DNA from: Bacteroidia bacterium
Lineage (GTDB): Bacteria > Bacteroidota > Bacteroidia > NS11-12g > UBA9320
Assembly: GCA_965216465.1 (NCBI GenBank)
Contig: CBDCFW010000006.1
Location: 96,001-160,000 of the forward strand
Length of the DNA: 64,000 nucleotides
Reading direction: 5' to 3'
Part shown: positions 187 to 55,335 of the stretch, one piece after another
How the letters are laid out: each line of letters begins with the position of its first letter
Numbering within the stretch: position 1 is the stretch's first letter
The notes under the pieces: generated by a model
Databases searched by the model: none
What the model was told of the DNA's origin: nothing
What the model saw: only the letters and a program-made list of their open reading frames with translations
Translations under genes and position numbers: made by a program

Positions 187-1641
187 TTATTTCTGATCCC
201 ACCATACTTTAGCTGCAAGTCCTGCGGCATTACTAGCTGGTGCATTACTATTTCTAACAGTTTCAATGTCTGGTACTAAAAGTCTTCTTGGAGTACTATT
301 TCCTGTCAATACAGAAGCATAAGACAAAGTCAATTCTCCGATTTCTCCAGCAGTTCCTTTTGCATTCGCAGATAAAGGTGGATACTGAGTTCTATTCATT
401 TCGAAGAACGCTTCTAAGTTTTGGAAGTTTGCCAAGGCAATCCACTTCTGCATCATAATTTGTCCGATGTCAGTTTCAATGTCACCAGTAGTCGTGTACT
501 CATAAGGTCCTCCTGAACCATAAAGAGCACTCGCTCCAGTTTGCGCATGCATTGCAAAAGAAGCTTCAATTCCAGCCTCATATTCAGCTTGTGCTCCAGC
601 TCCTCCATTGTATCTAACCATTGCTTCAGCTTTTAAGAAATGAAGCTCAGCCATTGTAAAGAAATAAACCGGTGTAGTTGCTGTAATGTTTGGAGTCGAT
701 AGGTCTCCGTTTGGAATATCTCGATTTGCAAAATCTCCTTGCTCTTTGGCTTTATGACCTGAAGCTCCAGGTACATAAATACCATCGATACGAGGATCTC
801 CGTTTTCATCAAGATACTTAATCATGGTGTTACTTGCTGATTGGTTTACCCCACCAAGTCTATCCACTTGAATTTCATAGTAAGGGTTACGTTTGCCTTG
901 CTCTGCAGCAAATTGGCTTATCGCAGCATCCATTGTAATAAAGTTATCATCGTTAATCAACGCCATAACTTCAGCTGATTTTGCACTCGCATAACTCTGT
1001 CTCATGTACATTTTAAGTTTAAGCGTGTTTGCAAAACCTACCCACTCTGACATAGAACCACCAAATACGAAATCTGAAGTTGACATATCCTTAGTTCCAG
1101 GATCATCATTGTATGCTGCTAGTGCTGCATCTATCTCTTCGATTAACGCTGCATAAATATCAGCACCATTGTCAAATGCTGGCTCCGTGTTGTTCACGCC
1201 TTGAAGCGCTTCAGAGAATGGAATGTCATTATACAAGTCTGCCAACATTTGGAAGGTATACGCCTCACAAAGTGTTGCTACTAGTGCATAATTGTTATCA
1301 CCAGCTTCTTGAGCTTTTTCTTTGATGATTCTTAAGTTCATTAATCCACCTGCGTAGATTTCTCTCCATTCTCTATCAAAGAAGTCAGTTTCAATTCTGT
1401 ATTCGTCGATACGCTCGTACTGACCAGCGTCAGGGCTTTGCGTATAGTACTGAGCCCAGAATCCTCCTAGGTTGTGATAAGATCCTCCAAAAGTGGCCAT
1501 CATAGAAGTTTGAGCTCCAGGGAGCATTAAACTAATATCAACATCACCCAACGCGTCGGGATCCGAATTAACGTCCACAAATTCTTTACACCCAATAGTT
1601 GATGTAAGAAATACTAATAATAATATTGTTATTTTTTTCAT
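187..1641 (-). CDS. SusD/RagB family outer-membrane lipoprotein (BT2263-like)
   Basis: Lipobox IGC; motifs DLYNDIPFSEA, ANTLKLKMYMR, QKWIAL, KVWWD; adjacent to SusC. Confidence 0.95.
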   Translation of the reverse strand: MKKITILLLVFLTSTIGCKEFVDVNSDPDALGDVDISLMLPGAQTSMMATFGGSYHNLGGFWAQYYTQSPDAGQYERIDEYRIETDFFDREWREIYAGGLMNLRIIKEKAQEAGDNNYALVATLCEAYTFQMLADLYNDIPFSEALQGVNNTEPAFDNGADIYAALIEEIDAALAAYNDDPGTKDMSTSDFVFGGSMSEWVGFANTLKLKMYMRQSYASAKSAEVMALINDDNFITMDAAISQFAAEQGKRNPYYEIQVDRLGGVNQSASNTMIKYLDENGDPRIDGIYVPGASGHKAKEQGDFANRDIPNGDLSTPNITATTPVYFFTMAELHFLKAEAMVRYNGGAGAQAEYEAGIEASFAMHAQTGASALYGSGGPYEYTTTGDIETDIGQIMMQKWIALANFQNLEAFFEMNRTQYPPLSANAKGTAGEIGELTLSYASVLTGNSTPRRLLVPDIETVRNSNAPASNAAGLAAKVWWDQK

Positions 1642-1654
1642 TTTTATCTAGCTA

Positions 1655-4600
1655 TTAAAGTGTAAATCGAACTGCAAATCCAACTGAACGTGTAGTTGGG
1701 TTAGCACTAAATTCTCCAAATTCTGCTTGAATACCGTTACCAAACGTTGTAGACTCAGGATCAACAAACTGATTGTCAGCAGGAGTCCATAAGAATAAGT
1801 TTCTACCGATAACGCTTAAAGAAGCACCCGTAAAAGGAAGTTTCTCTAACATCTCAGTTGGTAAAGTATACGTTAACGCAACTTCTCTTAGTTTAACAAA
1901 TGATTTATCGATTACTTGCATTCTGTCGAAAGCATCTGCTCTATGATAATCATCCATGTGAGCTGGGTCAACAGCTATTGTATTCTCAACATAATCGAAA
2001 GTACCATCTCCATTATCAATTTTTTGAACTGAGTTTGGAACAATAAATGGTTTTCTATCGTTAGTCGTAGTTTTAATAGAGTTACCTGTAAAGAAAGTAA
2101 TATCTGCTGTTCTTGAGAACATTAAACCACCTTGTCTTGAATCAAATAAGAAGCTCAATCCAAATGATTTATACTTAAGCCTAGAACCTAAACCTAACAT
2201 GTAGTTGATTTGAGAGCTACCATAAATTTCTTTTTCAGTAGCTGCAACAGGAACACCGTTTGCATCAACAACAACTTGGCCATCTGGAGACGTTTCTGCA
2301 ACGTTACCTTCAAATAAACCGATTGGTTGACCGTTACGTGCTAAGAATCCAGTAGTAGAAAGACCACCAATTGGGAAATCTTGCTCAAGACCAGATACTT
2401 CGTTTCTATTTCTAGTGTAGTTACCAAAAATCTCCCAGTTAAATCCGTCATCGTTTCTAAGTACTTTATAAGAAACAACTGCCTCAATACCTTTATTAGT
2501 AATATCAGCGAAGTTGAATATTTGAGAATTACCACCTGAAGAAGGAGCAACAGAACGATAAAGAATCATATCGTCAGTTAATCTGTTGTAGTATGTGAAG
2601 TCGATCTTACCTCTGTTTTCCATAAATTTAAGATCTAATCCTAACTCTAACTCCTTGTTGTACTCAGGTCTCAACTCTAAGTTAGCTAAGTTTTGCTCAA
2701 TACTAAACGAGTTTAAGCCACCAAATGGGTAAGTAATGTCTCTAAACGGCATGTCGTTGAAACTTTGAACGTAGTATCTTTCGATAGCATATGCTGGAGC
2801 ATCGTTCGCAGTTTGACCGTAACCAACTCTAAATTTACCAAAGTTGATAAAGTCAGGTAAATCTACAGCATCTGTAAATACGAAACTGAAGTTAGCAGAT
2901 GGGTAGAAGTATGCATTGTTCTCAACTGGCAAAGTAGAAGATTGGTCTCTTCTTACAGATAAGTTTAAGAAAGCCATTCGCTTATAAGCGAAGTTCGCTA
3001 ATAAGTATGCGTTAAACTGTCTTCTTTGAGACTGGCTTTCAGAAATAGTTGGAGTAGATGCACTATTTGATAAGTTGTAGTAACCTGGAATATCAAGGTC
3101 AACAACTGATGCAAATAAATTTGTTGTATTTCTAGAGTTAATATTAATACCTCCAGTAAGGTCCATATTTATTAATGGATTAATTTCCTTAGACCAGTTA
3201 ACAATAACATCGTTGTTAAATTCAGTTCTTCCTGAACTTTGCTCAGATACAAATCCAGGATCCTCAGTACTTGACCCAGCATTTGGACCGTACTCAGGCT
3301 CTAGAATCGCTCTGTGATTATGTATAACGTTATCGTTTAAGTCATAACCAAAACGATACATAACATCTAAGTTCTCAGCAATGTCGTATGTAGCTGTTAA
3401 GTTACCAAACATTTTAGTACCGTTGTAATTGTTACCATTCTCGTTTAATACGAAGTATGGATTGGTTACACCATAGTGTGTAAAGTAATCTTCAATGCTA
3501 TAAAATTGAGCTTCGTAATCTTGCATATCAACCACACTCATGTTACGTGGGATCTGCATAATATTATTATATACACTTTGAGAACCTTGTCCAGTTGTTA
3601 CAAACGAACCTTCTGAAAGTGCCATATTAACACCCCCTGAAACGGTAAGCTTATCGATTTTAGTTCTCGCTTTTAAGCTAACTGTGTTTCTATCATAAAC
3701 ATCAATCGCACCTGGGAAAACACCATCTTGACTTGCATTCGAATAAGAAGCATAGAAACTACTGTTTGCATTACCTCCAGTTATACCAATACTGTTATTC
3801 ATATTAGTACCCGTTTCGAAAAAGTCTCTTACGTTATTTTCTAATGCATTATATGGAGCAAGCAACTGAGCGTCGTCAACTACACGGCCAAATACACGAT
3901 CTCTACCGTCCAACTTAGGACCCCAAGAACCGTTTTCATCTAACCAGTGGTTACCGTCCCATCCTTGTCCGAAAGTGTTTTGGAAGTTTGGAGTACGTAA
4001 AACACTACTGAATGTAACGTTACCATTGTACTCAATACCTAGAGACTTTTTGCCTCCTTCAGTAGTACTTCCTTGCTTGGTAGTAATCATGATTACACCG
4101 TTTGCCCCTCTTGAACCATAAAGTGCAGAAGCGGCAGAACCTTTCAATACTTCCATACTCTCGATGTCATTTGGGTTAATAGTGTTCAAACCGTTACCAA
4201 AGTCAAAACCTCCATTCAAACTGTTCGAATTTTGAGAACTGTTCGAAATTGGAATACCATCAACTACGATTAGCGGTTGAGTTCCTTGACTTAACGAGTG
4301 AATACCACGAATAAAGATCCTTGTAGAAGCACCTGGGTCAGTAGAAGCAGTGGTAATTTGAACCCCGGCAATTTTACCTTGAAGTCCATTAATTACAGTT
4401 CTGTCCCCACCTTCAGTAATTTCAACCGCCTTAACAGAAGCAATTGAATAACCTAGCGACCGAGCACTTTTCTTAATATTCTGTGCGGTTACTACTACTT
4501 GATCAATAGATTCATCGGATGACTTCAATACAATCGAAACATTGTTGGCAGTTCCTACCTCATATTCTTGAGTCACCATACCGATAAAACTTACAACCAG

Positions 4601-51032: not shown

Positions 51033-53183
51033 CTAGCGCAGTAGATAGAGTTCACCCTTTGCTAACTTAGGAACTTCCGTTCCATTTTCTGGGAAGTAAT
51101 ACCAGATTAAATAGAAGTAGTGCCCTTGAGGTGCTGGCTCACCTTGATAGTTTCCATCCCATCCCAGGTTCGTTCCTTCTTCATCGTACATCATTTCACC
51201 CCAGCGATTATAAATCTGCATCTTTCTTAAAACTACAGTTCCGTTTGGTCTAAATATTGGATTAAAAGGATCAGAGTTAGGCGAGAAAGCATTTGGGATA
51301 AAAATATCGCATGCATACGGTAAAAACACGAGGTCTACTTCATCCGACGCAGTTCCACATTTGTTGGTAACAGTAGCCTGATAATAACCTGTTTTTGTAA
51401 TAGTTCGGGTGCTGCCTACATAGCCATCGGACCAAGTGTACGTTGCTTCATCTGTTGTCAGATCAATTACACGAGATCCATCCCCACAAAGTGTAGAATC
51501 ATTTCCCAGCGAAATCGAAGGAGGTCTTATTGTACCAACATTGAACGAATCTCTATATACACAGCCATTTAAGTTTTTCTCGGCCCAGACAATTCCACCA
51601 CTTGAAACGGTAGCAAAAGAGTCGTTTGAACCTGTGCTCCATCGTACAGTAGCATTTCCTTTATCCACTCTTAGATCATATTGCGAACCAACACATATGG
51701 TAGTATCATTTTGTAAGCTAAACACAGGAAGCGGGTTAACATTTGTGGTCTGAGTGAATGTATCTTTACAATCTCCAACCTGAACAATATAGCTAACAGA
51801 ATTTAGCCCTAACTGAATTGGATTAAACTCATTCGTAGCGTTGTCTACATTATCTCCTTCAAAATTCCCTCCAGGAAGATTAGGGAATAAGGTAACTTTT
51901 GCATCTCCTTCGCAATACTCGGGGTCTAAACCTCCAAAAAAGTTGTTGGGTTGTGCAATTACTTCAACAGAATCGATGTATTCATCATAGCATCCTGCAG
52001 TATCTAATACGGTAAGCTTAACTTCGTACTGTCCAGGATTAGCGTAGCTATGATTTACATATCTTCCGACATCACCGTTTCCATCTCCAAAAGTCCATGT
52101 ATTTGTTGCCGAGGCATCAGGATGATAGTGGTTAAAGAAAAATCGGTTTCCGTTTTGACACATCGAAGTATCGCTAAACACGATTTGTGAAGAATCAATT
52201 GGAGAAGGCTTCACTGTTACAATCATTTCCATAGAATCTACACAGAACTCAACTCCTGCATTTTTAGTTGAAAAGGCATGAAGAACAACCCGGTACACGC
52301 CCGGTTCGGTATATACAATCCGTGCATTCCCATTATTGTTGGTTCGACCATCGCCTTGATCCCACAACAATGTGGTAAATCCAGATATTCCTGGAACGGT
52401 GGTTAGATTCTTAAATGCAAAGCGGTTAGTTGAACCGTCTGCGTTATTAAAACACTGAACTTGACTATTATTGGGAGAGTCTACATGCAGCACAAAATTT
52501 ACATTAGGCAAAGGTGCAACTGTATCTTCTGCTGAAAATGTAGCTTCACACCCAGTTGTAGAGACGGTTAACTCAACCGTATATAAGCCATATGTGCTAT
52601 AAGTAACCGATGGGCTTTGAGCTGATGAAGTTTGTCCATCTCCAAAATCCCAGCTGTAGTTGATTGTCTCTGTACCTGACTGAGAAGCACTAGGAGTAAA
52701 TGTAAATTGGTTTACATTTTCACACTGATACTCATCATTTATTGTAAAAGTAGTACTGATCCAACCCGTTGTTACTGAAGCTTCAGGGTATGCAGAAGTT
52801 AAATAATGCAAATTAGCCCCCATGTTGCTTCGATTGTATTCAAAAACAGCAAAGTGATAAGTTGTATTGTGCTTTAAATTAGTAACAGTAACCGAGTTTC
52901 CAATGCCATTATATACGACATATTCTGAAGTAGAAAACGAATATCCATTCGAGAATGTATCATTAGCAAGATAGTAAACATTATCAGATGGAGAATTCGA
53001 AACAGAAGACCCCTCAGATGCAATAACGATACGTTCAGCCCCATCACCAGCAGTCCACGACAAAGTCACCTCACTGCAATAAGTATTGGTGAAGCTCATA
53101 TTGGTGCTAGCAGTAGTCGGAGTTTGCCCGAATGAATAAATCATTCCGAACACCAAAAGCAGTCCATAGATGTATCGTGTCAT
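51033..53183 (-). CDS. PKD-domain surface protein with T9SS type-B (gliding motility-associated) C-terminal domain
   Basis: Signal peptide from MTRYIYG, Fn3-like N-domain, WDFGDG/WTFGDG PKD repeats, FIPNAFSPN..IYNRWGE..WDG CTD; TACCTTTG at 53193-53200 on the minus strand. Confidence 0.92.
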   Translation of the reverse strand: MTRYIYGLLLVFGMIYSFGQTPTTASTNMSFTNTYCSEVTLSWTAGDGAERIVIASEGSSVSNSPSDNVYYLANDTFSNGYSFSTSEYVVYNGIGNSVTVTNLKHNTTYHFAVFEYNRSNMGANLHYLTSAYPEASVTTGWISTTFTINDEYQCENVNQFTFTPSASQSGTETINYSWDFGDGQTSSAQSPSVTYSTYGLYTVELTVSTTGCEATFSAEDTVAPLPNVNFVLHVDSPNNSQVQCFNNADGSTNRFAFKNLTTVPGISGFTTLLWDQGDGRTNNNGNARIVYTEPGVYRVVLHAFSTKNAGVEFCVDSMEMIVTVKPSPIDSSQIVFSDTSMCQNGNRFFFNHYHPDASATNTWTFGDGNGDVGRYVNHSYANPGQYEVKLTVLDTAGCYDEYIDSVEVIAQPNNFFGGLDPEYCEGDAKVTLFPNLPGGNFEGDNVDNATNEFNPIQLGLNSVSYIVQVGDCKDTFTQTTNVNPLPVFSLQNDTTICVGSQYDLRVDKGNATVRWSTGSNDSFATVSSGGIVWAEKNLNGCVYRDSFNVGTIRPPSISLGNDSTLCGDGSRVIDLTTDEATYTWSDGYVGSTRTITKTGYYQATVTNKCGTASDEVDLVFLPYACDIFIPNAFSPNSDPFNPIFRPNGTVVLRKMQIYNRWGEMMYDEEGTNLGWDGNYQGEPAPQGHYFYLIWYYFPENGTEVPKLAKGELYLLR

Positions 53184-53258
53184 CAAGTCGTGCAAAGGTA
53201 CTATCAATATGCGTTAACGCCATATTTGTAATGTCAGATTTAAAAAAAATAACCCGTA

Positions 53259-53290
53259 TTGGGTAGAATAATCAGAAAAGTATATATTTG
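53259..53290 (+). promoter_or_regulatory. Sigma-A promoter (-33 TTG, 21-nt spacer, -7 TATATTTG)
   Basis: TTG at 53259-53261 and TATATTTG at 53283-53290. Confidence 0.7.
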
Positions 53291-53294
53291 TGAC

Positions 53295-53420
53295 TGTATT
53301 AATTAAACTACTGCTAATCAATACATTTTTATTGCCTTAAAAGTTTGCTGCAGAAAGTAGCATGGTTAATAGTTAGTTTAGTTAGGTTTAACTTGGGGGC
53401 AGTAACATGCCCCCAATTTT
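53295..53420 (+). ncRNA. Candidate sRNA 2 (~125 nt) with UUAG-repeat tract
   Basis: Promoter, two hairpins, GGTTAATAGTTAGTTTAGTTAGGTTTAA, then a terminator. Confidence 0.65.
53393..53420 (+). terminator. Intrinsic terminator
   Basis: TTGGGGGCA-gtaaca-TGCCCCCAA-TTTT. Confidence 0.8.
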
Positions 53421-53488
53421 ACCAAATACACTTCACTACAACATCAAAATCTTCACTTCATTATTTCTTAATTTCATTACTTTGTACT

Positions 53489-54478
53489 ACGAAGAATAGC
53501 AAAGAACATATTACCATTATAGATAGCTTAAGAGGTCTTGCCGTACTCGGCGTTTGCTTATTTCACTTTATTTCGGAGAACAGCAAGCTCGACAATCTTC
53601 AGTTCCTTCAAGATTCCTTTAGCTTTGGATCAAAAGGAGTTCAACTCTTCTTTGTAATATCAAGTATTGTCGTTCCGTTGGTGCTCATTAACGCTAATTA
53701 CTCAATTCGTTCGTTCTTCCGCTATTTACTACGTCGACTTACCCGACTTGAGCCCGTTTACCTAGCCTCAATCATATTTAGCATCGTATTAACCGTTTCA
53801 ATTGCATTGGCAAATAGTACAGAACCTGAGCTTAATCTAAGCTTAAACAATCTGTTATTGCACTTTGCATATTTAATCCCTTTTACAGCCGAAGGAGAAT
53901 GGATAAATCCTGTTTATTGGTCTTTAGCTATTGAATTTCAGTACTACATCGTTTTGGGACTTTGTTTCCCACTAGCCTTGTCAAAAAAAGTGGCCTTGAG
54001 GGCAATATTTTATATGCTATTCTTGGTTGGACCTTTGTTATTGCCAAGTCCAGAGCACTTTCCCTTTTGGGCACCTTACTTCCTTCTTGGGGTTATCTAC
54101 GTTCTTCGAATTAAAAATGAAACAACTTTTCAAGAAACCGTAGTTGTACTGGCATTGGCCGGTGTGTTAGTCTTAAAACATCAAGACCTAATTGATTTTT
54201 TGATCGCCGGTGGAGCCATCGGTATGATTCACTTCTTCAGAAATAAAAAACTTGGATTATTGCACAATCTTGGCTTAATCTCTTATTCAGTCTATCTATT
54301 TCACACTCTATTTGGAACCAAAATACAATCTATGTTTTTGGCCCGCTTCAATGGATACGGGGCTCAATTTTTAAGCATTTTTGTGGCACTATTTGCCACG
54401 GTCCTATTAGCATACGTCATGTACAGGCTAGTTGAAAAGCCTTCAAAAAACTTATCCAAGAAGGTAAAATATAATTAG
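53489..54478 (+). CDS. Acyltransferase family 3 (OafA-like); non-canonical or lost start
   Basis: IDSLRGLA..V..FH, GVQLFFVIS, RRLTRL, WSLAIEFQYY, LGLISYSVYLFH, YRLVEKP. Homology begins at an ACG codon. Confidence 0.85.
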   Translation, partial: TKNSKEHITIIDSLRGLAVLGVCLFHFISENSKLDNLQFLQDSFSFGSKGVQLFFVISSIVVPLVLINANYSIRSFFRYLLRRLTRLEPVYLASIIFSIVLTVSIALANSTEPELNLSLNNLLLHFAYLIPFTAEGEWINPVYWSLAIEFQYYIVLGLCFPLALSKKVALRAIFYMLFLVGPLLLPSPEHFPFWAPYFLLGVIYVLRIKNETTFQETVVVLALAGVLVLKHQDLIDFLIAGGAIGMIHFFRNKKLGLLHNLGLISYSVYLFHTLFGTKIQSMFLARFNGYGAQFLSIFVALFATVLLAYVMYRLVEKPSKNLSKKVKYN

Positions 54479-55335
54479 ATTCGAGCTACTATGCCAAGGG
54501 GTAAAACCTGCTTGGTTCTTGAACGTAAACACAACTCCATAATCTCCACTTTTCTATTTTTAAAATAGTCGAACATTAAGTTTTGAATAATGTAGGGCGA
54601 TAAACCAAGAGAGTACACATTTAGCACCAAAAATCCATTGTCGTCAAGAAGCTGCGAAACCTCGCTTAGCAATGTACCAAGCTTCTCCTCGAGTTTCCAA
54701 CGCTCTCCTTTTGCACCAATGCCATAAGCAGGAGGGTCAAGAATAATACCCTGATACTTTCGTCCTCGTTTTACCTCACGACTCACAAATTTTAAGGCAT
54801 CTTCTACAACCCATCGAATATTGTTCATCTTGCTGATTTGCTGATTCTCGTTGGCCCAGCTTACTACTTGTTTTATAGAATCTACATGCACTACATCAAC
54901 TCCAGCAAGTCGGGCTGCTAAAGAAGCACCACCGGTATATGCAAATAGATTAAGTACTGAAGCTTGTTTGCCTAAAGCTTTTGATCGCGAGTAGATATAG
55001 TCCCAGTTGGCAGCTTGTTCAGGAAATATGCCTATATGTTTAAAAGCTGTGAAATTTAATTTGAATTCAAATGATTTCTTATCAATTTGATAGGCTAAGC
55101 GCCAAGGTTGAGGTTTTCGCTTCAAGTTCCAATCCCCTCGATGACTTCCTTTTTGCTGAAATTCTCCATAAGCCATACTCTCCCACTCTCCTTGACTCAT
55201 TCTTGGGCTCCATATAGCCTGCGGCTCTGGTCGAATAAGAATATGTTCTCCAAACTTTTCTAACTTCTTGCCATTCCCACTATCAATGAGCTCATAATTC
55301 TTCCAATTTGTTGGAAATATTGCTTCTACTTTCAT
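54475..55335 (-). CDS. Class I SAM-dependent methyltransferase (RlmI/RlmK-like)
   Basis: YELIDSGNGKKLE, KHIGIFPEQ, VLNLFAYTGG, ILDPPAYG. Confidence 0.9.
   Translation of the reverse strand: MKVEAIFPTNWKNYELIDSGNGKKLEKFGEHILIRPEPQAIWSPRMSQGEWESMAYGEFQQKGSHRGDWNLKRKPQPWRLAYQIDKKSFEFKLNFTAFKHIGIFPEQAANWDYIYSRSKALGKQASVLNLFAYTGGASLAARLAGVDVVHVDSIKQVVSWANENQQISKMNNIRWVVEDALKFVSREVKRGRKYQGIILDPPAYGIGAKGERWKLEEKLGTLLSEVSQLLDDNGFLVLNVYSLGLSPYIIQNLMFDYFKNRKVEIMELCLRSRTKQVLPLGIVARI

What the first reader, a model, noticed from the sequence alone, without database searches (positions are those of the whole stretch)
53259..53420. Structured sRNA with tandem UUAG repeats hidden under a mis-extended ORF
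Seen: a complete promoter; a 5' hairpin (TGTATTAATTA / TAATCAATACA, one mismatch); a second hairpin (TGCTGC-agaaa-GTAGCA); an apparently unpaired GGUUAAUAGUUAGUUUAGUUAGGUUUAA tract (53364-53391, three UUAG); then a GC-rich terminator. Known: Bacteroidota lack Hfq and CsrA but encode RRM proteins, and UAG/UUAG is the hnRNP A1/Musashi RRM ligand. Inference: a multivalent protein-sponge sRNA or a seed-repeat regulator.
Basis: partly seen in the sequence, partly recalled or inferred. Interest (0 to 1): 0.78.

Follow-up and report, generated by a model that had tools for sequence, protein, structure and literature searches.

The report
Self-masked UAG-repeat small RNA gene
This is a real, previously undescribed small RNA gene of an uncultured Bacteroidia lineage whose conserved UAG-repeat stretch is folded back onto its own 5' end, and similar UAG-repeat-plus-terminator RNAs turn up in several other Bacteroidia families.

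Summary
The sequence features are all there, and comparison shows a real, independent ~125-nt sRNA gene at 53296-53420 (+). It has a TAnnTTTG-type promoter box, two hairpins and a terminator that covary, and conserved synteny. It is found in 12 of 25 genus genomes and in 4 genomes of two sister genera.

It matches no Rfam 15 family. The 377-aa ORF over it is mis-extended.

In all 12 full-length homologues it is predicted to be the 3' strand of a long G·U-rich closing helix (P(unpaired) 0.06-0.36). Covariation for that helix is weak because the tract never varies.

The tract is the conserved core. Tract plus terminator recurs, mostly unmasked, in other Bacteroidia RNAs.

A more widespread sibling sRNA elsewhere in the genome shares the core. 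It is complementary to this RNA's 5' strand.

Function is inferred only. There are no expression data and no stand-out target. RRM proteins are present but do not discriminate carriers from non-carriers. The favoured reading is a self-masked regulatory sRNA whose UAG-repeat core binds an RRM-type protein and/or A/C/U-rich RNA.

The parts
53258..53261 (+). -33-like element ATTG (3 of 4 of the recalled TTTG consensus), 21 nt upstream of the -7 box
   Evidence: Read. The consensus is recalled, not tested.
53283..53290 (+). -7 promoter box TATATTTG (TAnnTTTG type)
   Evidence: By my reading, an exact TAnnTTTG box sits at the same relative place in 11 of 15 homologues with upstream sequence.
53296..53420 (+). 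Inferred sRNA transcript ('sRNA-1', ~125 nt). The 5' end is inferred from the box, the 3' end from the terminator.
   Evidence: Fold z = -4.98. Covariance-model matches in 12 genomes, E from 9e-28 to 3e-6. Single copy in its own genome.
53299..53320 (+). P1 5' strand ('anti-core'), A/C/U-rich, containing AAACUACUGC
   Evidence: Pairs with 53363-53385 in the MFE fold. 89.3% of cells are paired across 12 sequences, against 17-48% when slid. It is also complementary to the sRNA-2 core.
53325..53344 (+). P2 hairpin. AU-rich stem; loop UUGCCU here, ACUGYCU in most homologues.
   Evidence: Helix 4: 6 pairs, 4 with changes on both sides, 80.6% paired.
53346..53362 (+).
   Evidence: Helix 5: 6 pairs, 5 with changes on both sides, 97.2% paired.
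53363..53385 (+). UAG-repeat core, also the P1 3' strand: UGGUUAAUAGUUAGUUUAGUUAG. It has no C and is invariant or nearly so across homologues.
   Evidence: Invariant columns. P(unpaired) 0.13. The same tract occurs in other RNA contexts.
53393..53420 (+). Intrinsic terminator: 9-bp stem UUGGGGGCA/UGCCCCCAA, 6-nt loop, UUUU tail
   Evidence: Helix 6: all 9 pairs change on both sides, 98.1% paired. Found by my terminator scan.
53471..54478 (+). Acyltransferase-3 gene. Probable true start is near ATT 53471. The called ORF from TTG 53345 is an over-extension across the sRNA.
   Evidence: The gene is at this locus only in G000 among the 25 genus loci examined.
51033..53207 (-). Divergent PKD / CHU_C (type IX secretion signal) gene, the one neighbour kept in all three genera. 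Probable ATG at 53183, preceded by its own TACCTTTG box.
54475..55335 (-). SAM-dependent methyltransferase gene. In most genus relatives and in g20 it lies convergent to the sRNA terminator.

Best explanation
Strongly supported: 53296-53420 (+) is an independently transcribed, non-coding, structured sRNA gene of a family not described in Rfam. Its parts are a Bacteroidota-type promoter, a long imperfect G·U-rich closing helix P1 (5' 'anti-core' against the 3' UAG-repeat 'core'), two hairpins P2 and P3 inside it, and an intrinsic terminator.

Inferred mechanism: the working part is the invariant, C-free UAG-repeat core (UGGUUAAUAGUUAGUUUAGUUAG).
- In relatives and in other Bacteroidia families the same core sits single-stranded between a hairpin and a terminator.
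- In this lineage it is kept masked by the 5' anti-core.
- When unmasked, the core acts as a multivalent single-strand site. Unmasking could come from co-transcriptional folding, from a protein, or from the sibling sRNA-2, whose invariant AGUAGUAGUUUAGU pairs with the anti-core.
- The most likely ligand is an RRM-1 type RNA-binding protein, possibly helping it pair with A/C/U-rich mRNA sites.

My odds: real independent sRNA gene, about 0.9. P1 forms in vivo, about 0.65. The protein-docking core mechanism as stated, about 0.35.
For: Gene and structure:
- Fold z = -4.98.
- P2, P3 and the terminator covary. Overall, 0 of 500 shuffles reach the observed values.
- The promoter box is conserved in 11 of 15 homologues by my reading.
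- The RNA lies in the same intergenic slot in 12 of 25 genus genomes.
- It is also in g11 (3 of 3) and g20 (1 of 1), next to the same PKD/CHU_C gene even where the other neighbour differs.
- An exact-pattern scan of 185,579 species genomes returned 12 loci. Ten are this family and two are unrelated.
- There is no Rfam match.

Masking:
- The tract has P(unpaired) 0.06-0.36, and freeing it costs 4.4-14.9 kcal/mol in 12 of 12 full-length homologues.
- P1 cells are 89.3% paired, against 17-48% when slid.

Core as the business end:
- It is the most conserved block.
- The four 'group B' orthologues keep hairpin, tract and terminator but largely lose the mask (P(unpaired) 0.33-0.61).
- Tract plus terminator recurs elsewhere. 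Of 77 metagenome pattern hits, 13 have a terminator call downstream, against 1 of 77 on the control side and 43 of 3000 random windows.
- Short promoter-hairpin-tract-terminator RNAs occur in another family, f66 (L223, L224). One RNA, L225, has a much longer repeat tract.
- Variable repeat number with 4-5 nt periodicity fits a multivalent protein site.

Protein candidate:
- G000 has 2 RRM_1 genes.
- It has no match to Hfq, CsrA, TRAP, HutP or TROVE.
- Bacteroides RbpB binds single-stranded RNA. In vitro it bound a 3x GUAGGAUA probe of G/U/A residues with Kd 5.1 uM (passages of bioRxiv 10.1101/2021.04.27.441718). It binds single-stranded, AU-rich regions in CLIP (passages of PMC11697453).

sRNA-2 link:
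- All 12 mask-bearing sRNA-1 carriers have an sRNA-2 hit, and 0 of 4 group B carriers do.
- The predicted duplex is -16 to -19.9 kcal/mol in 10 of 12.
- The heterodimer is favoured by 3.5-11.7 kcal/mol in 7 of 7 and frees the tract.
Against: - There are no expression data of any kind: no RNA run is listed and only DNA-like contigs could be laid. The transcript ends are therefore inferred.
- P1 has little true covariation. Only 4 of 21 pairs change on both sides, and paired cells are 89.3% against 87.2% in shuffles (8 of 500 reach it). Both strands are conserved in sequence, and the alignment was fitted to the model.
- RRM genes are in 27 of 28 genus genomes, with or without the RNA, so nothing links them specifically.
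- RRM binding to UAG repeats is an analogy plus one in-vitro motif from another genus.
- The exact 14-mer of the tract is not enriched class-wide. There were 16 hits in 251 genomes, and by eye the tool's reversed-pattern control hit more often.
- UAGUUAG is not enriched upstream of G000 terminators in general (AGTTAG 3 observed, 2.7 expected).
- The sRNA-1 anti-core is only the 135th best of 14,891 genomic sites for the sRNA-2 motif.
- The sRNA-1/sRNA-2 co-occurrence may simply be shared ancestry.
- About half of the genus lacks the RNA, so it is dispensable.
Confidence: 0.38

Rival explanations
1. A purely antisense regulator. The UAG-repeat core, and/or the P2 loop ACUGYCU, is a seed that pairs with A/C/U-rich, G-poor mRNA sites such as translation initiation regions. 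The 5' anti-core is an internal target mimic that tunes its activity. No dedicated protein site is involved.
For: - A conserved complementary strand exists inside the molecule, so the core is pairing-competent.
- The sibling sRNA-2 has a ~55-nt nearly invariant single-stranded stretch, typical of seed regions.
- The P2 loop is fairly conserved and predicted to be exposed.
- A G/U/A-only strand can pair with many A/C/U-rich sites through G·U.
Against: - Genome-wide duplex scans with the tract give nothing better than the reversed tract. The best non-self hit is -28.8 kcal/mol against -29.5, and 33 against 39 sites reach -24 or lower.
- The same holds for the sRNA-2 motif: -23.2 against -25.6.
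- The repeat number varies between lineages, which is odd for a fixed antisense seed.
- A 22-nt tract is identical in RNAs of different Bacteroidia families with different neighbours.
Confidence: 0.3
2. An sRNA sponge. The main job of sRNA-1 is to capture the family-wide sibling sRNA-2 with its 5' anti-core. Its own tract serves only as an intramolecular competitor.
For: - There is a 14-bp contiguous complementarity between the two RNAs.
- All 12 anti-core-bearing carriers have an sRNA-2 hit at E <= 0.01, and 0 of 4 group B carriers do.
- The heterodimer is favoured in 7 of 7.
Against: - The energy gain is small in G000 (-3.5 kcal/mol).
- The site ranks only 135th of 14,891.
- In G013 and G001 the duplex is no better than shuffles (27 and 60 of 200).
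- Related genomes are not independent samples.
- For 5 of the 12 genomes the G000 sRNA-2 core was used as a stand-in.
- It does not explain why the tract itself is invariant.
Confidence: 0.12
3. A cis-acting leader or attenuator of the downstream acyltransferase gene. The terminator is a regulated attenuator, and the RNA is only a read-through 5' UTR.
For: - In G000 the acyltransferase has no canonical start codon at the homologous N-terminus.
- Reading, I saw no TAnnTTTG box between the terminator (53420) and the probable start (53471). Read-through from the sRNA promoter may therefore feed it.
Against: - The acyltransferase is at this locus only in G000 among 25 genus loci. Everywhere else the RNA ends convergent to a methyltransferase or an exonuclease gene.
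- The RNA is conserved without any co-oriented downstream gene.
Confidence: 0.05
4. It is coding (translated from TTG 53345 or TTG 53393 as the N-terminus of the acyltransferase), or it is a non-functional conserved spacer.
For: An open frame runs from TTG 53345 into the acyltransferase, and a gene caller took it (P0001, 377 aa).
Against: - The Pfam match starts at residue 58.
- All 119 listed homologues are 316-359 aa and leave the N-terminal ~45-55 residues unmatched.
- The frame is not kept in relatives, whereas hairpins covary as RNA.
Confidence: 0.03

Closest known systems
GibS / FopS sRNAs of Bacteroides thetaiotaomicron (RbpB-associated)
   Same: - Both are promoter-to-terminator sRNAs of Bacteroidota, a phylum without Hfq, ProQ or CsrA.
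- Both have a conserved stretch placed just upstream of a Rho-independent terminator.
- FopS/GibS are associated with an RRM-1 protein (passages of PMC11697453).
   Different: - There is no sequence or covariance-model similarity. The Rfam 15 scan at E <= 10 gave only noise. I did not check that FopS is in the copy searched; the paper says it was deposited.
- FopS is multicopy (14 per genome), while this RNA is single-copy.
- In FopS the conserved stretch is a single-stranded 5' seed. Here it is a UAG-repeat tract masked in a long helix.
Protein-sponge sRNAs with repeated short motifs (CsrB/RsmZ type; recalled)
   Same: A short motif is repeated several times in one small RNA, which suggests multivalent protein binding.
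   Different: - The CsrB motif is GGA, displayed in hairpin loops. CsrA is absent here.
- The motif here is (U)UAG at 4-5 nt spacing in a linear tract. In this lineage the tract is base-paired.
UAG/GAG-triplet RNA targets of TRAP and HutP (Bacillus; recalled)
   Same: Tandem UAG triplets are read by an oligomeric protein.
   Different: - The recalled spacing rules are 2-3 nt for TRAP and 4 nt for HutP. They do not fit the 1-2 nt spacers here.
- Neither protein family is found in G000.
sRNA sponges / anti-sRNAs carrying a target mimic (e.g. SroC, 3'ETS-leuZ; recalled)
   Same: One RNA carries a sequence complementary to the conserved region of another sRNA.
   Different: - Here the mimic sits in the same molecule as a copy of the sequence it mimics a target for, giving an intramolecular mask.
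- The interaction is only predicted.
6S-Flavo RNA (RF01685) and bacterial Y RNAs
   Same: Similar size (~100 nt core). The 5' and 3' ends pair into a long irregular closing helix.
   Different: - There is no model match.
- The RNA is missing from about half of the genus, which is unlike 6S.
- There is no Ro/TROVE protein.

Membership tests
Any Rfam 15 family (4227 models) | Covariance-model score at or near the family's gathering threshold | tested here: not met
   the best hits over 52900-53800 score 12-15 bits against thresholds of 60-100 (E 3-8); no gathering-level match anywhere in the 64-kb window.
6S-Flavo (RF01685) / 6S (RF00013) | Model match; near-universal presence in the clade | tested here: not met
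   no match in G000. In the RF01685 search nothing matched in the 14 control genomes either, so that negative is weak; 0 of 151 order genomes score over the cut-off. This RNA is at its locus in only 12 of 25 genus genomes.
Bacterial Y RNA | Presence of a Ro60/Rsr (TROVE) protein, usually nearby | tested here: not met
   no TROVE match in G000. The control matched in D. radiodurans and B. thetaiotaomicron.
CsrB/RsmZ-type sponge | Multiple GGA motifs in loops; CsrA/RsmA in the genome | tested here: not met
   no CsrA. The sequence has no GGA-in-loop array.
Hfq-dependent sRNA | Hfq in the genome | tested here: not met
   no Hfq match in G000 (100% complete genome).
TRAP- or HutP-bound RNA | The protein is present, with (G/U)AG triplets at the required spacing (recalled: 2-3 nt for TRAP, 4 nt for HutP) | tested here: not met
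   neither family is in G000. The spacers here are 1-2 nt.
RRM-1 (RbpB-like) protein ligand | RRM-1 protein encoded in the genome | tested here: met
   2 RRM_1 matches in G000 (C3:219962-220171 and C6:93003-93212). 27 of 28 genus genomes have at least one.
RRM-1 (RbpB-like) protein ligand | Direct binding of the protein to the RNA (CLIP or EMSA) | not testable with these tools
   There is no RNA-protein prediction tool and no CLIP data for this organism.
Independent trans-encoded sRNA gene | Own promoter and own terminator, conserved apart from flanking genes | tested here: met
   The promoter box is in 11 of 15 homologues by my reading. The terminator covaries in 9 of 9 pairs. The downstream neighbour differs between G000, other g1 genomes and g11.
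Independent trans-encoded sRNA gene | A discrete transcript is observed | not testable with these tools
   No RNA run holds the stretch. Only contigs could be laid.

The most novel reading that the evidence does not exclude
Two linked claims.

(1) 'Hairpin, UAG-repeat single strand, terminator' is a Bacteroidia-wide 3' module. It would be the docking platform for the phylum's RRM-1 chaperones, a functional counterpart of the Hfq-binding module of proteobacterial sRNAs.

(2) sRNA-1 is a self-masked copy of that module. Its 5' anti-core is a strand-exchange switch. Pairing with the family-wide sibling sRNA-2 would both sequester sRNA-2 and release the UAG-repeat core of sRNA-1, giving a two-RNA toggle.
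Probability: 0.15. Interest if true: 0.85.

Novelty: new variant of a known kind. Interest (0 to 1): 0.62.

Why it matters
Post-transcriptional control in Bacteroidota is poorly mapped. The phylum lacks Hfq, ProQ and CsrA, and RRM-1 proteins have only recently been proposed as its global RNA binders. That work rests on Bacteroides gut isolates.

A conserved sRNA family from an uncultured environmental Bacteroidia lineage would add to this picture in three ways. It carries an invariant C-free UAG-repeat core. The core recurs next to terminators in RNAs of several other Bacteroidia families. It also has a sibling sRNA.

Together these give a concrete sequence motif to test as an RRM-protein recognition element. 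They also give a candidate example of intramolecular masking and sRNA-sRNA cross-talk.

On the practical side, the finding shows an annotation error: a 377-aa ORF was called across an sRNA gene. It also provides two covariance-model-ready RNA families that are missing from Rfam.

Tried and rejected
- **Expression.** No RNA holder was listed for 53100-53700. The four best runs are contigs of low depth and show no ends or strand. Their only content of note is two loose ends where a relative's variant joins at the conserved tract.
- **Generic promoter/terminator scan**. It is not informative for Bacteroidota promoters and missed this terminator.
- **RNAalifold on plain MAFFT alignments**. It recovered only 5 terminator pairs. 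Structure-aware alignment through covariance models was needed.
- **Metagenome scan** with a degenerate tract pattern. Of the 80 loci fetched, only one clearly matched the model (L111; L153 matched weakly). The rest were by-catch.
- **Target search** with the tract and with the sRNA-2 motif. Results were no better than reversed-sequence controls.
- **General terminator-upstream element.** UAGUUAG is not enriched upstream of G000's 337 terminator-like sites.
- **'Stops in all three frames' insulator.** Rejected by reading: the TAA and TAG triplets of the G000 tract fall in only two frames.
- **Cis-antisense to the divergent PKD/CHU_C gene.** Rejected, because that gene has its own TAnnTTTG box about 10 nt before its ATG and so does not overlap the sRNA.
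- **Co-occurrence with RRM genes.** Not discriminating.
- **6S or Y RNA identity.** Rejected.
- **A model for the minimal module.** MAFFT and R2 re-alignment did not give a clean alignment, so I built no third model. The class-wide prevalence of the module is therefore not measured.
- **Earlier findings of this scan.** Nothing on this place, sequence or words.
- **Literature.**
  - String searches for the tract found only unrelated primer sequences.
  - Word searches found no UAG-repeat sRNA in Bacteroidota.
  - Supplements of the RbpB papers, which hold the CLIP motifs, were not read and may bear on the RRM claim.
Full report
**1. What is in the sequence**

The window is G000:C6:96001-160000. 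Its genome is 38.4% G+C, 3.23 Mb, and rated 100% complete.

The features between 53208 and ~53470 lie between two genes. One is a minus-strand PKD / CHU_C (type IX secretion signal) gene at 51033-53207. The other is a plus-strand acyltransferase.

- TATATTTG lies at 53283-53290, with ATTG 21 nt upstream.
- The inverted repeat 53295-53305 / 53315-53325 has one mismatch.
- The hairpin lies at 53346-53362.
- The tract at 53364-53391 contains three UUAG.
- The GC hairpin at 53393-53416 is followed by TTTT.

That TAnnTTTG and TTTG are the Bacteroidota -7 and -33 consensus is recalled, not tested. The generic sigma-70 scan is not built for such promoters. It flagged neither the box nor this terminator. 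My own terminator scan of the genome did find the terminator.

**2. Structure**

The stretch 53296-53422 folds at -41 kcal/mol, z = -4.98, with 0 of 200 shuffles as good.

The 5' segment 53299-53320 pairs with the 'unpaired' tract 53363-53385 and forms a long, G·U-rich, bulged closing helix (P1). P1 encloses two hairpins:

The terminator follows P1.

**3. Relatives**

BLAST against relatives found the region in the same genus, with the tract as the best-kept block.

I used the downstream methyltransferase as an anchor. It was found in 25 of 28 genus genomes. I then read the spacer next to it in all 25:
- 12 carry the RNA.
- Eight of those are 'group A', with the 5' strand AACUACUAC and the P2 loop ACUGYCU.
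- Four are 'group B', where only hairpin, tract and terminator are clearly alike.
- 13 have a short spacer without the RNA.

I built a covariance model in two rounds and searched 151 genomes of the order. It found the RNA in:
- three of three genomes of a sister genus, g11;
- the one genome of another, g20.

The second family of the order gave only weak hits. The four I looked at were terminators or coding sequence.

An exact scan for GTTAANAGTTAGTNTAGTTAG over one genome for each of 185,579 species returned 12 loci:
- Ten are this family. All ten are MAGs whose titles give no taxon below class; most say only 'Bacteroidetes' or 'Bacteroidia bacterium'.
- One is a simple repeat.
- One is an unexplained 24-nt identity in a GC-rich Planctomycetota contig.

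The RNA is single-copy in its own genome.

**4. Support for each helix**

These counts are on the 12 full-length sequences aligned to the model.

| Measure | Result |
|---|---|
| Cells paired, whole structure | 90.8% (78.9% in shuffles) |
| Pairs changed on both sides | 23 |
| Shuffles reaching the observed values | 0 of 500 |
| Cells paired when partners are slid | 35-50% |
| Terminator pairs with double changes | 9 of 9 |
| P3 pairs with double changes | 5 of 6 |
| P2 pairs with double changes | 4 of 6 |

P1 is weaker evidence. Counted alone:
- It is 89.3% paired against 87.2% in shuffles (8 of 500 reach this).
- Only 4 of 21 pairs have double changes.
- The reason is that the 3' strand never varies. 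Most variation is one-sided (U-G to C-G, A-U to G-U).
- Sliding drops pairing to 17-48%.

The alignment was fitted to the model, which favours it.

Thermodynamically, the tract is mostly paired in all 12. Mean P(unpaired) is 0.06-0.36, and forcing it open costs 4.4-14.9 kcal/mol.

In the four group B orthologues the tract is much less sequestered. P(unpaired) is 0.33-0.61, and freeing it costs 0.6-3.0 kcal/mol.

**5. An independent gene, not a leader or a coding region**

In relatives the terminator lies a few bases from the stop codon of a convergent gene. That gene is the methyltransferase in g1 and g20, and a PolB-exonuclease-like gene in g11.

The acyltransferase is present only in G000 among the 25 genus loci.

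The one constant neighbour is the divergent PKD/CHU_C gene. It has its own TAnnTTTG box about 10 nt before its ATG, so it does not overlap the sRNA.

The 377-aa ORF called from TTG 53345 is over-extended:
- Acyl_transf_3 starts at residue 58.
- The 119 listed homologues are 316-359 aa and cover 83-89% of the query.
- The closest homologue (53% identity) starts opposite residue ~43, which is ATT 53471 in G000.

There is no canonical start codon there. Reading, I saw no promoter box between 53420 and 53471. In G000 the acyltransferase may therefore depend on read-through of the sRNA terminator. This is a side effect of an insertion, not the reason the RNA exists.

**6. Not a described family**

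An Rfam 15 scan at E <= 10 gave four noise hits of 12-15 bits. The whole window has no gathering-level match.

Other checks were also negative:
- 6S-Flavo and 6S are not detected in G000. 6S-Flavo is not detected over its cut-off in 151 genomes of the order.
- There is no TROVE protein.

Literature searches in the held library found no UAG-repeat sRNA of Bacteroidota and no occurrence of the tract string in a relevant paper.

**7. The tract as a recurring module**

The degenerate metagenome scan mostly returned by-catch: only L111 clearly matched the model, and L153 matched weakly. The by-catch was informative.

Eight soil or rhizosphere contigs hold a larger conserved RNA-like region, which I call 'family 2'. 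It ends in [hairpins]-AUGGUUAAUAGUUAGUUUAGUUUAG-UGGAUAAUCAG-[terminator]. A second AAUAGUUAGGG sits in a hairpin loop upstream. It has no Rfam hit at E <= 0.1.

One of 401 sampled class genomes has family 2 (G504, family f46). There it lies downstream of a beta-helix protein gene.

An exact 14-mer of the tract hit 16 of 251 class genomes. It is not enriched overall: the tool's reversed-pattern control hit more often by eye, and I did not total it.

Of the 13 hits outside this family:
- Three have a strict terminator call downstream.
- By eye, three more do.
- Two are ~85-nt promoter-hairpin-tract-terminator RNAs in family f66. About 35 nt of each are nearly identical to the g11 form.
- One RNA carries a tract about twice as long.

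The neighbours of these RNAs differ. None has an Rfam hit.

Across the 77 distinct metagenome hits, 13 have a strict terminator call within 40 nt downstream on the tract strand. That compares with 1 of 77 on the control side and 43 of 3000 random G000 windows. Seven of the 13 are family 2, so the independent lineages number about six.

Within G000 itself, UAGUUAG is not a general terminator-upstream element.

**8. A sibling sRNA**

The terminator scan turned up a second locus in G000, at C4:~69110-69235 and outside the window. Its layout is:
- a TAACTTTG box;
- a covarying hairpin;
- a ~55-nt almost invariant stretch, (A/G)CAUGGUUAAUAAUUUUCAUCAUAAGUAGUAGUUUAGUAUUUUAUCUUUGAAAUU;
- a covarying terminator.

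Its fold has z = -4.67, and it has no Rfam hit.

It shares the hairpin-CAUGGUUAAUA start and a UAG-rich block with sRNA-1.

It is far more widespread than sRNA-1:
- 13 of 28 genus genomes.
- 36 of 151 order genomes at E <= 1e-6.
- 35 of 65 genomes in this family, in 12 of its 13 genera.
- 0 of 85 in the other family of the order.

Its invariant AGUAGUAGUUUAGU is complementary to the sRNA-1 anti-core:
- The predicted duplex is -16 to -19.9 kcal/mol in 10 of 12 genomes.
- At most 4 of 200 shuffles do as well in 9 of 12 genomes.
- In 5 genomes the G000 sRNA-2 core stood in for the genome's own.
- Cofolding favours the heterodimer by 3.5-11.7 kcal/mol in 7 of 7 and leaves the sRNA-1 tract unpaired.

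All 12 carriers of the anti-core-bearing sRNA-1 have an sRNA-2 hit at E <= 0.01 (10 of 12 at 1e-6). None of the 4 group B carriers does.

Against reading much into this:
- Related genomes are not independent samples.
- The anti-core is only the 135th best of 14,891 genomic sites for that motif.

**9. How it most likely works**

Shown:
- a conserved, structured, independent sRNA gene;
- an invariant C-free UAG-repeat core;
- a conserved complementary 5' strand in this lineage.

Inferred: the core is the functional element. In this lineage it is masked, and it acts once exposed.

I favour a single-strand-binding protein site, with RRM-1 proteins as the best candidate, for these reasons:
- The motif is periodic, and its repeat number varies between lineages.
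- It sits next to the terminator, as chaperone modules do.
- G000 has two RRM_1 genes but no Hfq, CsrA, TRAP or HutP.
- Bacteroides RbpB binds single-stranded RNA. It bound a 3x GUAGGAUA probe at 5.1 uM (passages read). It binds single-stranded, AU-rich regions in vivo (passages read).

None of this shows binding. RRM genes are present in 27 of 28 genus genomes regardless of the RNA.

A purely antisense role is nearly as likely. Its weakness is that no target stands out over reversed-sequence controls.

**10. Verdict**

The key structural reading, an unpaired tract, is not supported for this RNA. The interpretation as a protein-sponge or seed-repeat sRNA remains open, but it now has a sharper form.

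The element is a new sRNA family. It has an unusual self-masked repeat core, a sibling sRNA, and look-alike modules across Bacteroidia.

There are no expression data, and no experiment stands behind the mechanism.

Noticed in passing
L235:212-338 (+) = G000:C4:~69110-69235, outside the window: A second conserved sRNA ('sRNA-2').
- Layout: TAACTTTG box, covarying hairpin, ~55-nt nearly invariant stretch starting CAUGGUUAAUA and containing AGUAGUAGUUUAGUA, then a covarying terminator.
- Fold z = -4.67. No Rfam hit.
- Found in 36 of 151 order genomes (family f1 35 of 65, f2 0 of 85).
- It is complementary to the sRNA-1 5' strand.

   Followed up: partly
L103, L104, L110, L114, L117, L121, L129, L143 (around position 400 of each); L218:~1480-2120 (-): 'Family 2', a longer conserved RNA-like region in soil and rhizosphere contigs and in one class genome (G504).
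- It ends in AUGGUUAAUAGUUAGUUUAGUUUAGUGGAUAAUCAG plus a terminator whose loop is the conserved GCGAGG.
- A second AAUAGUUAGGG sits in a hairpin loop upstream.
- No Rfam hit.
- L117 and L104 carry an extra small ORF inside it.

   Followed up: partly
L223:~1470-1560 (+), L224:~1470-1560 (-), L225:~1470-1580 (+): Short RNAs in other Bacteroidia families with the layout promoter, hairpin, UAG-repeat tract, terminator.
- In f66 (L223, L224), about 35 nt are nearly identical to the g11 form of sRNA-1.
- In f68 (L225), the tract is about twice as long.
- The tracts are predicted to be mostly unpaired.
- The neighbouring genes are unrelated to those of sRNA-1.

   Followed up: partly
L236:~260-340 (+) = G000:C6:~544160-544235, outside the window: The 3' UTR of an ORF ending ...AKAKSIEIK holds AUUAGUUAGUUGGUUUAAG directly before a terminator. 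By recall this resembles a small heat-shock protein; I did not test that. It is a second tract-plus-terminator instance in the same genome.
   Followed up: no
window 53421-54478: The acyltransferase-3 gene is inserted between the sRNA and the methyltransferase only in G000.
- It has no ATG, GTG or TTG at the N-terminus defined by homologues. ATT 53471 is the codon opposite the closest homologue's start.
- I saw no promoter box after the sRNA terminator.

   Followed up: partly
L092:2501-2521 (-): A GC-rich Planctomycetota MAG contig contains TGGTTAATAGTTAGTTTAGTTAGG. This is 24 nt identical to the tract, in an otherwise unrelated context. It is unexplained.
   Followed up: no
L093, L098, L113, L120, L135, L139, L140, L151, L152, L160, L166, L167, L168: Thirteen freshwater metagenome contigs carry the complement of a tract variant, UUUAAACUAACUAACUACUAAC (or a near variant), in a short spacer. 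In most of them an ATG follows directly, preceded by GAAAGGGAAAACA or a variant, on the opposite strand. This may be a conserved intergenic spacer of a phage or another lineage.
   Followed up: no
L253 / L255 (G091:C13:4138-4237 and 4467-4571): The g20 genome has two tandem copies of sRNA-2 about 330 nt apart, 97% and 94% identical to the G000 copy.
   Followed up: no
L070:1501-1560 (+) (G041): A short terminator-ended stretch, AGAUUAGACAACUAUUGCUGUCUAAAUU..., resembles the sRNA-1 5' strand and P2 loop but lacks P3 and the tract. It may be a truncated or different relative.
   Followed up: no
L018:~1400-1560 (+) (G004:C55) and L066:1501-1592 (-) (G005): Further hairpin, UAG-rich stretch, terminator arrangements away from the syntenic locus. 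G004 has GUUCAUAGUUAAUAUAGUUAG. G005, which lacks sRNA-1 at the locus, has CAUAGUUAGUUU after a probable gene end.
   Followed up: no
window 53358 and 53390: In low-depth contigs of two runs, the assembly switches at the conserved tract to a relative's version of the RNA, with different flanks on either side. Closely related carriers therefore co-occur in those samples.
   Followed up: no
whole genome G000 and 151 genomes of its order: No 6S RNA was detected. RF00013 and RF01685 found nothing in G000. RF01685 scored over its cut-off in 0 of 151 order genomes. The RF01685 search also matched nothing in the control genomes, so that negative is weak.
   Followed up: partly
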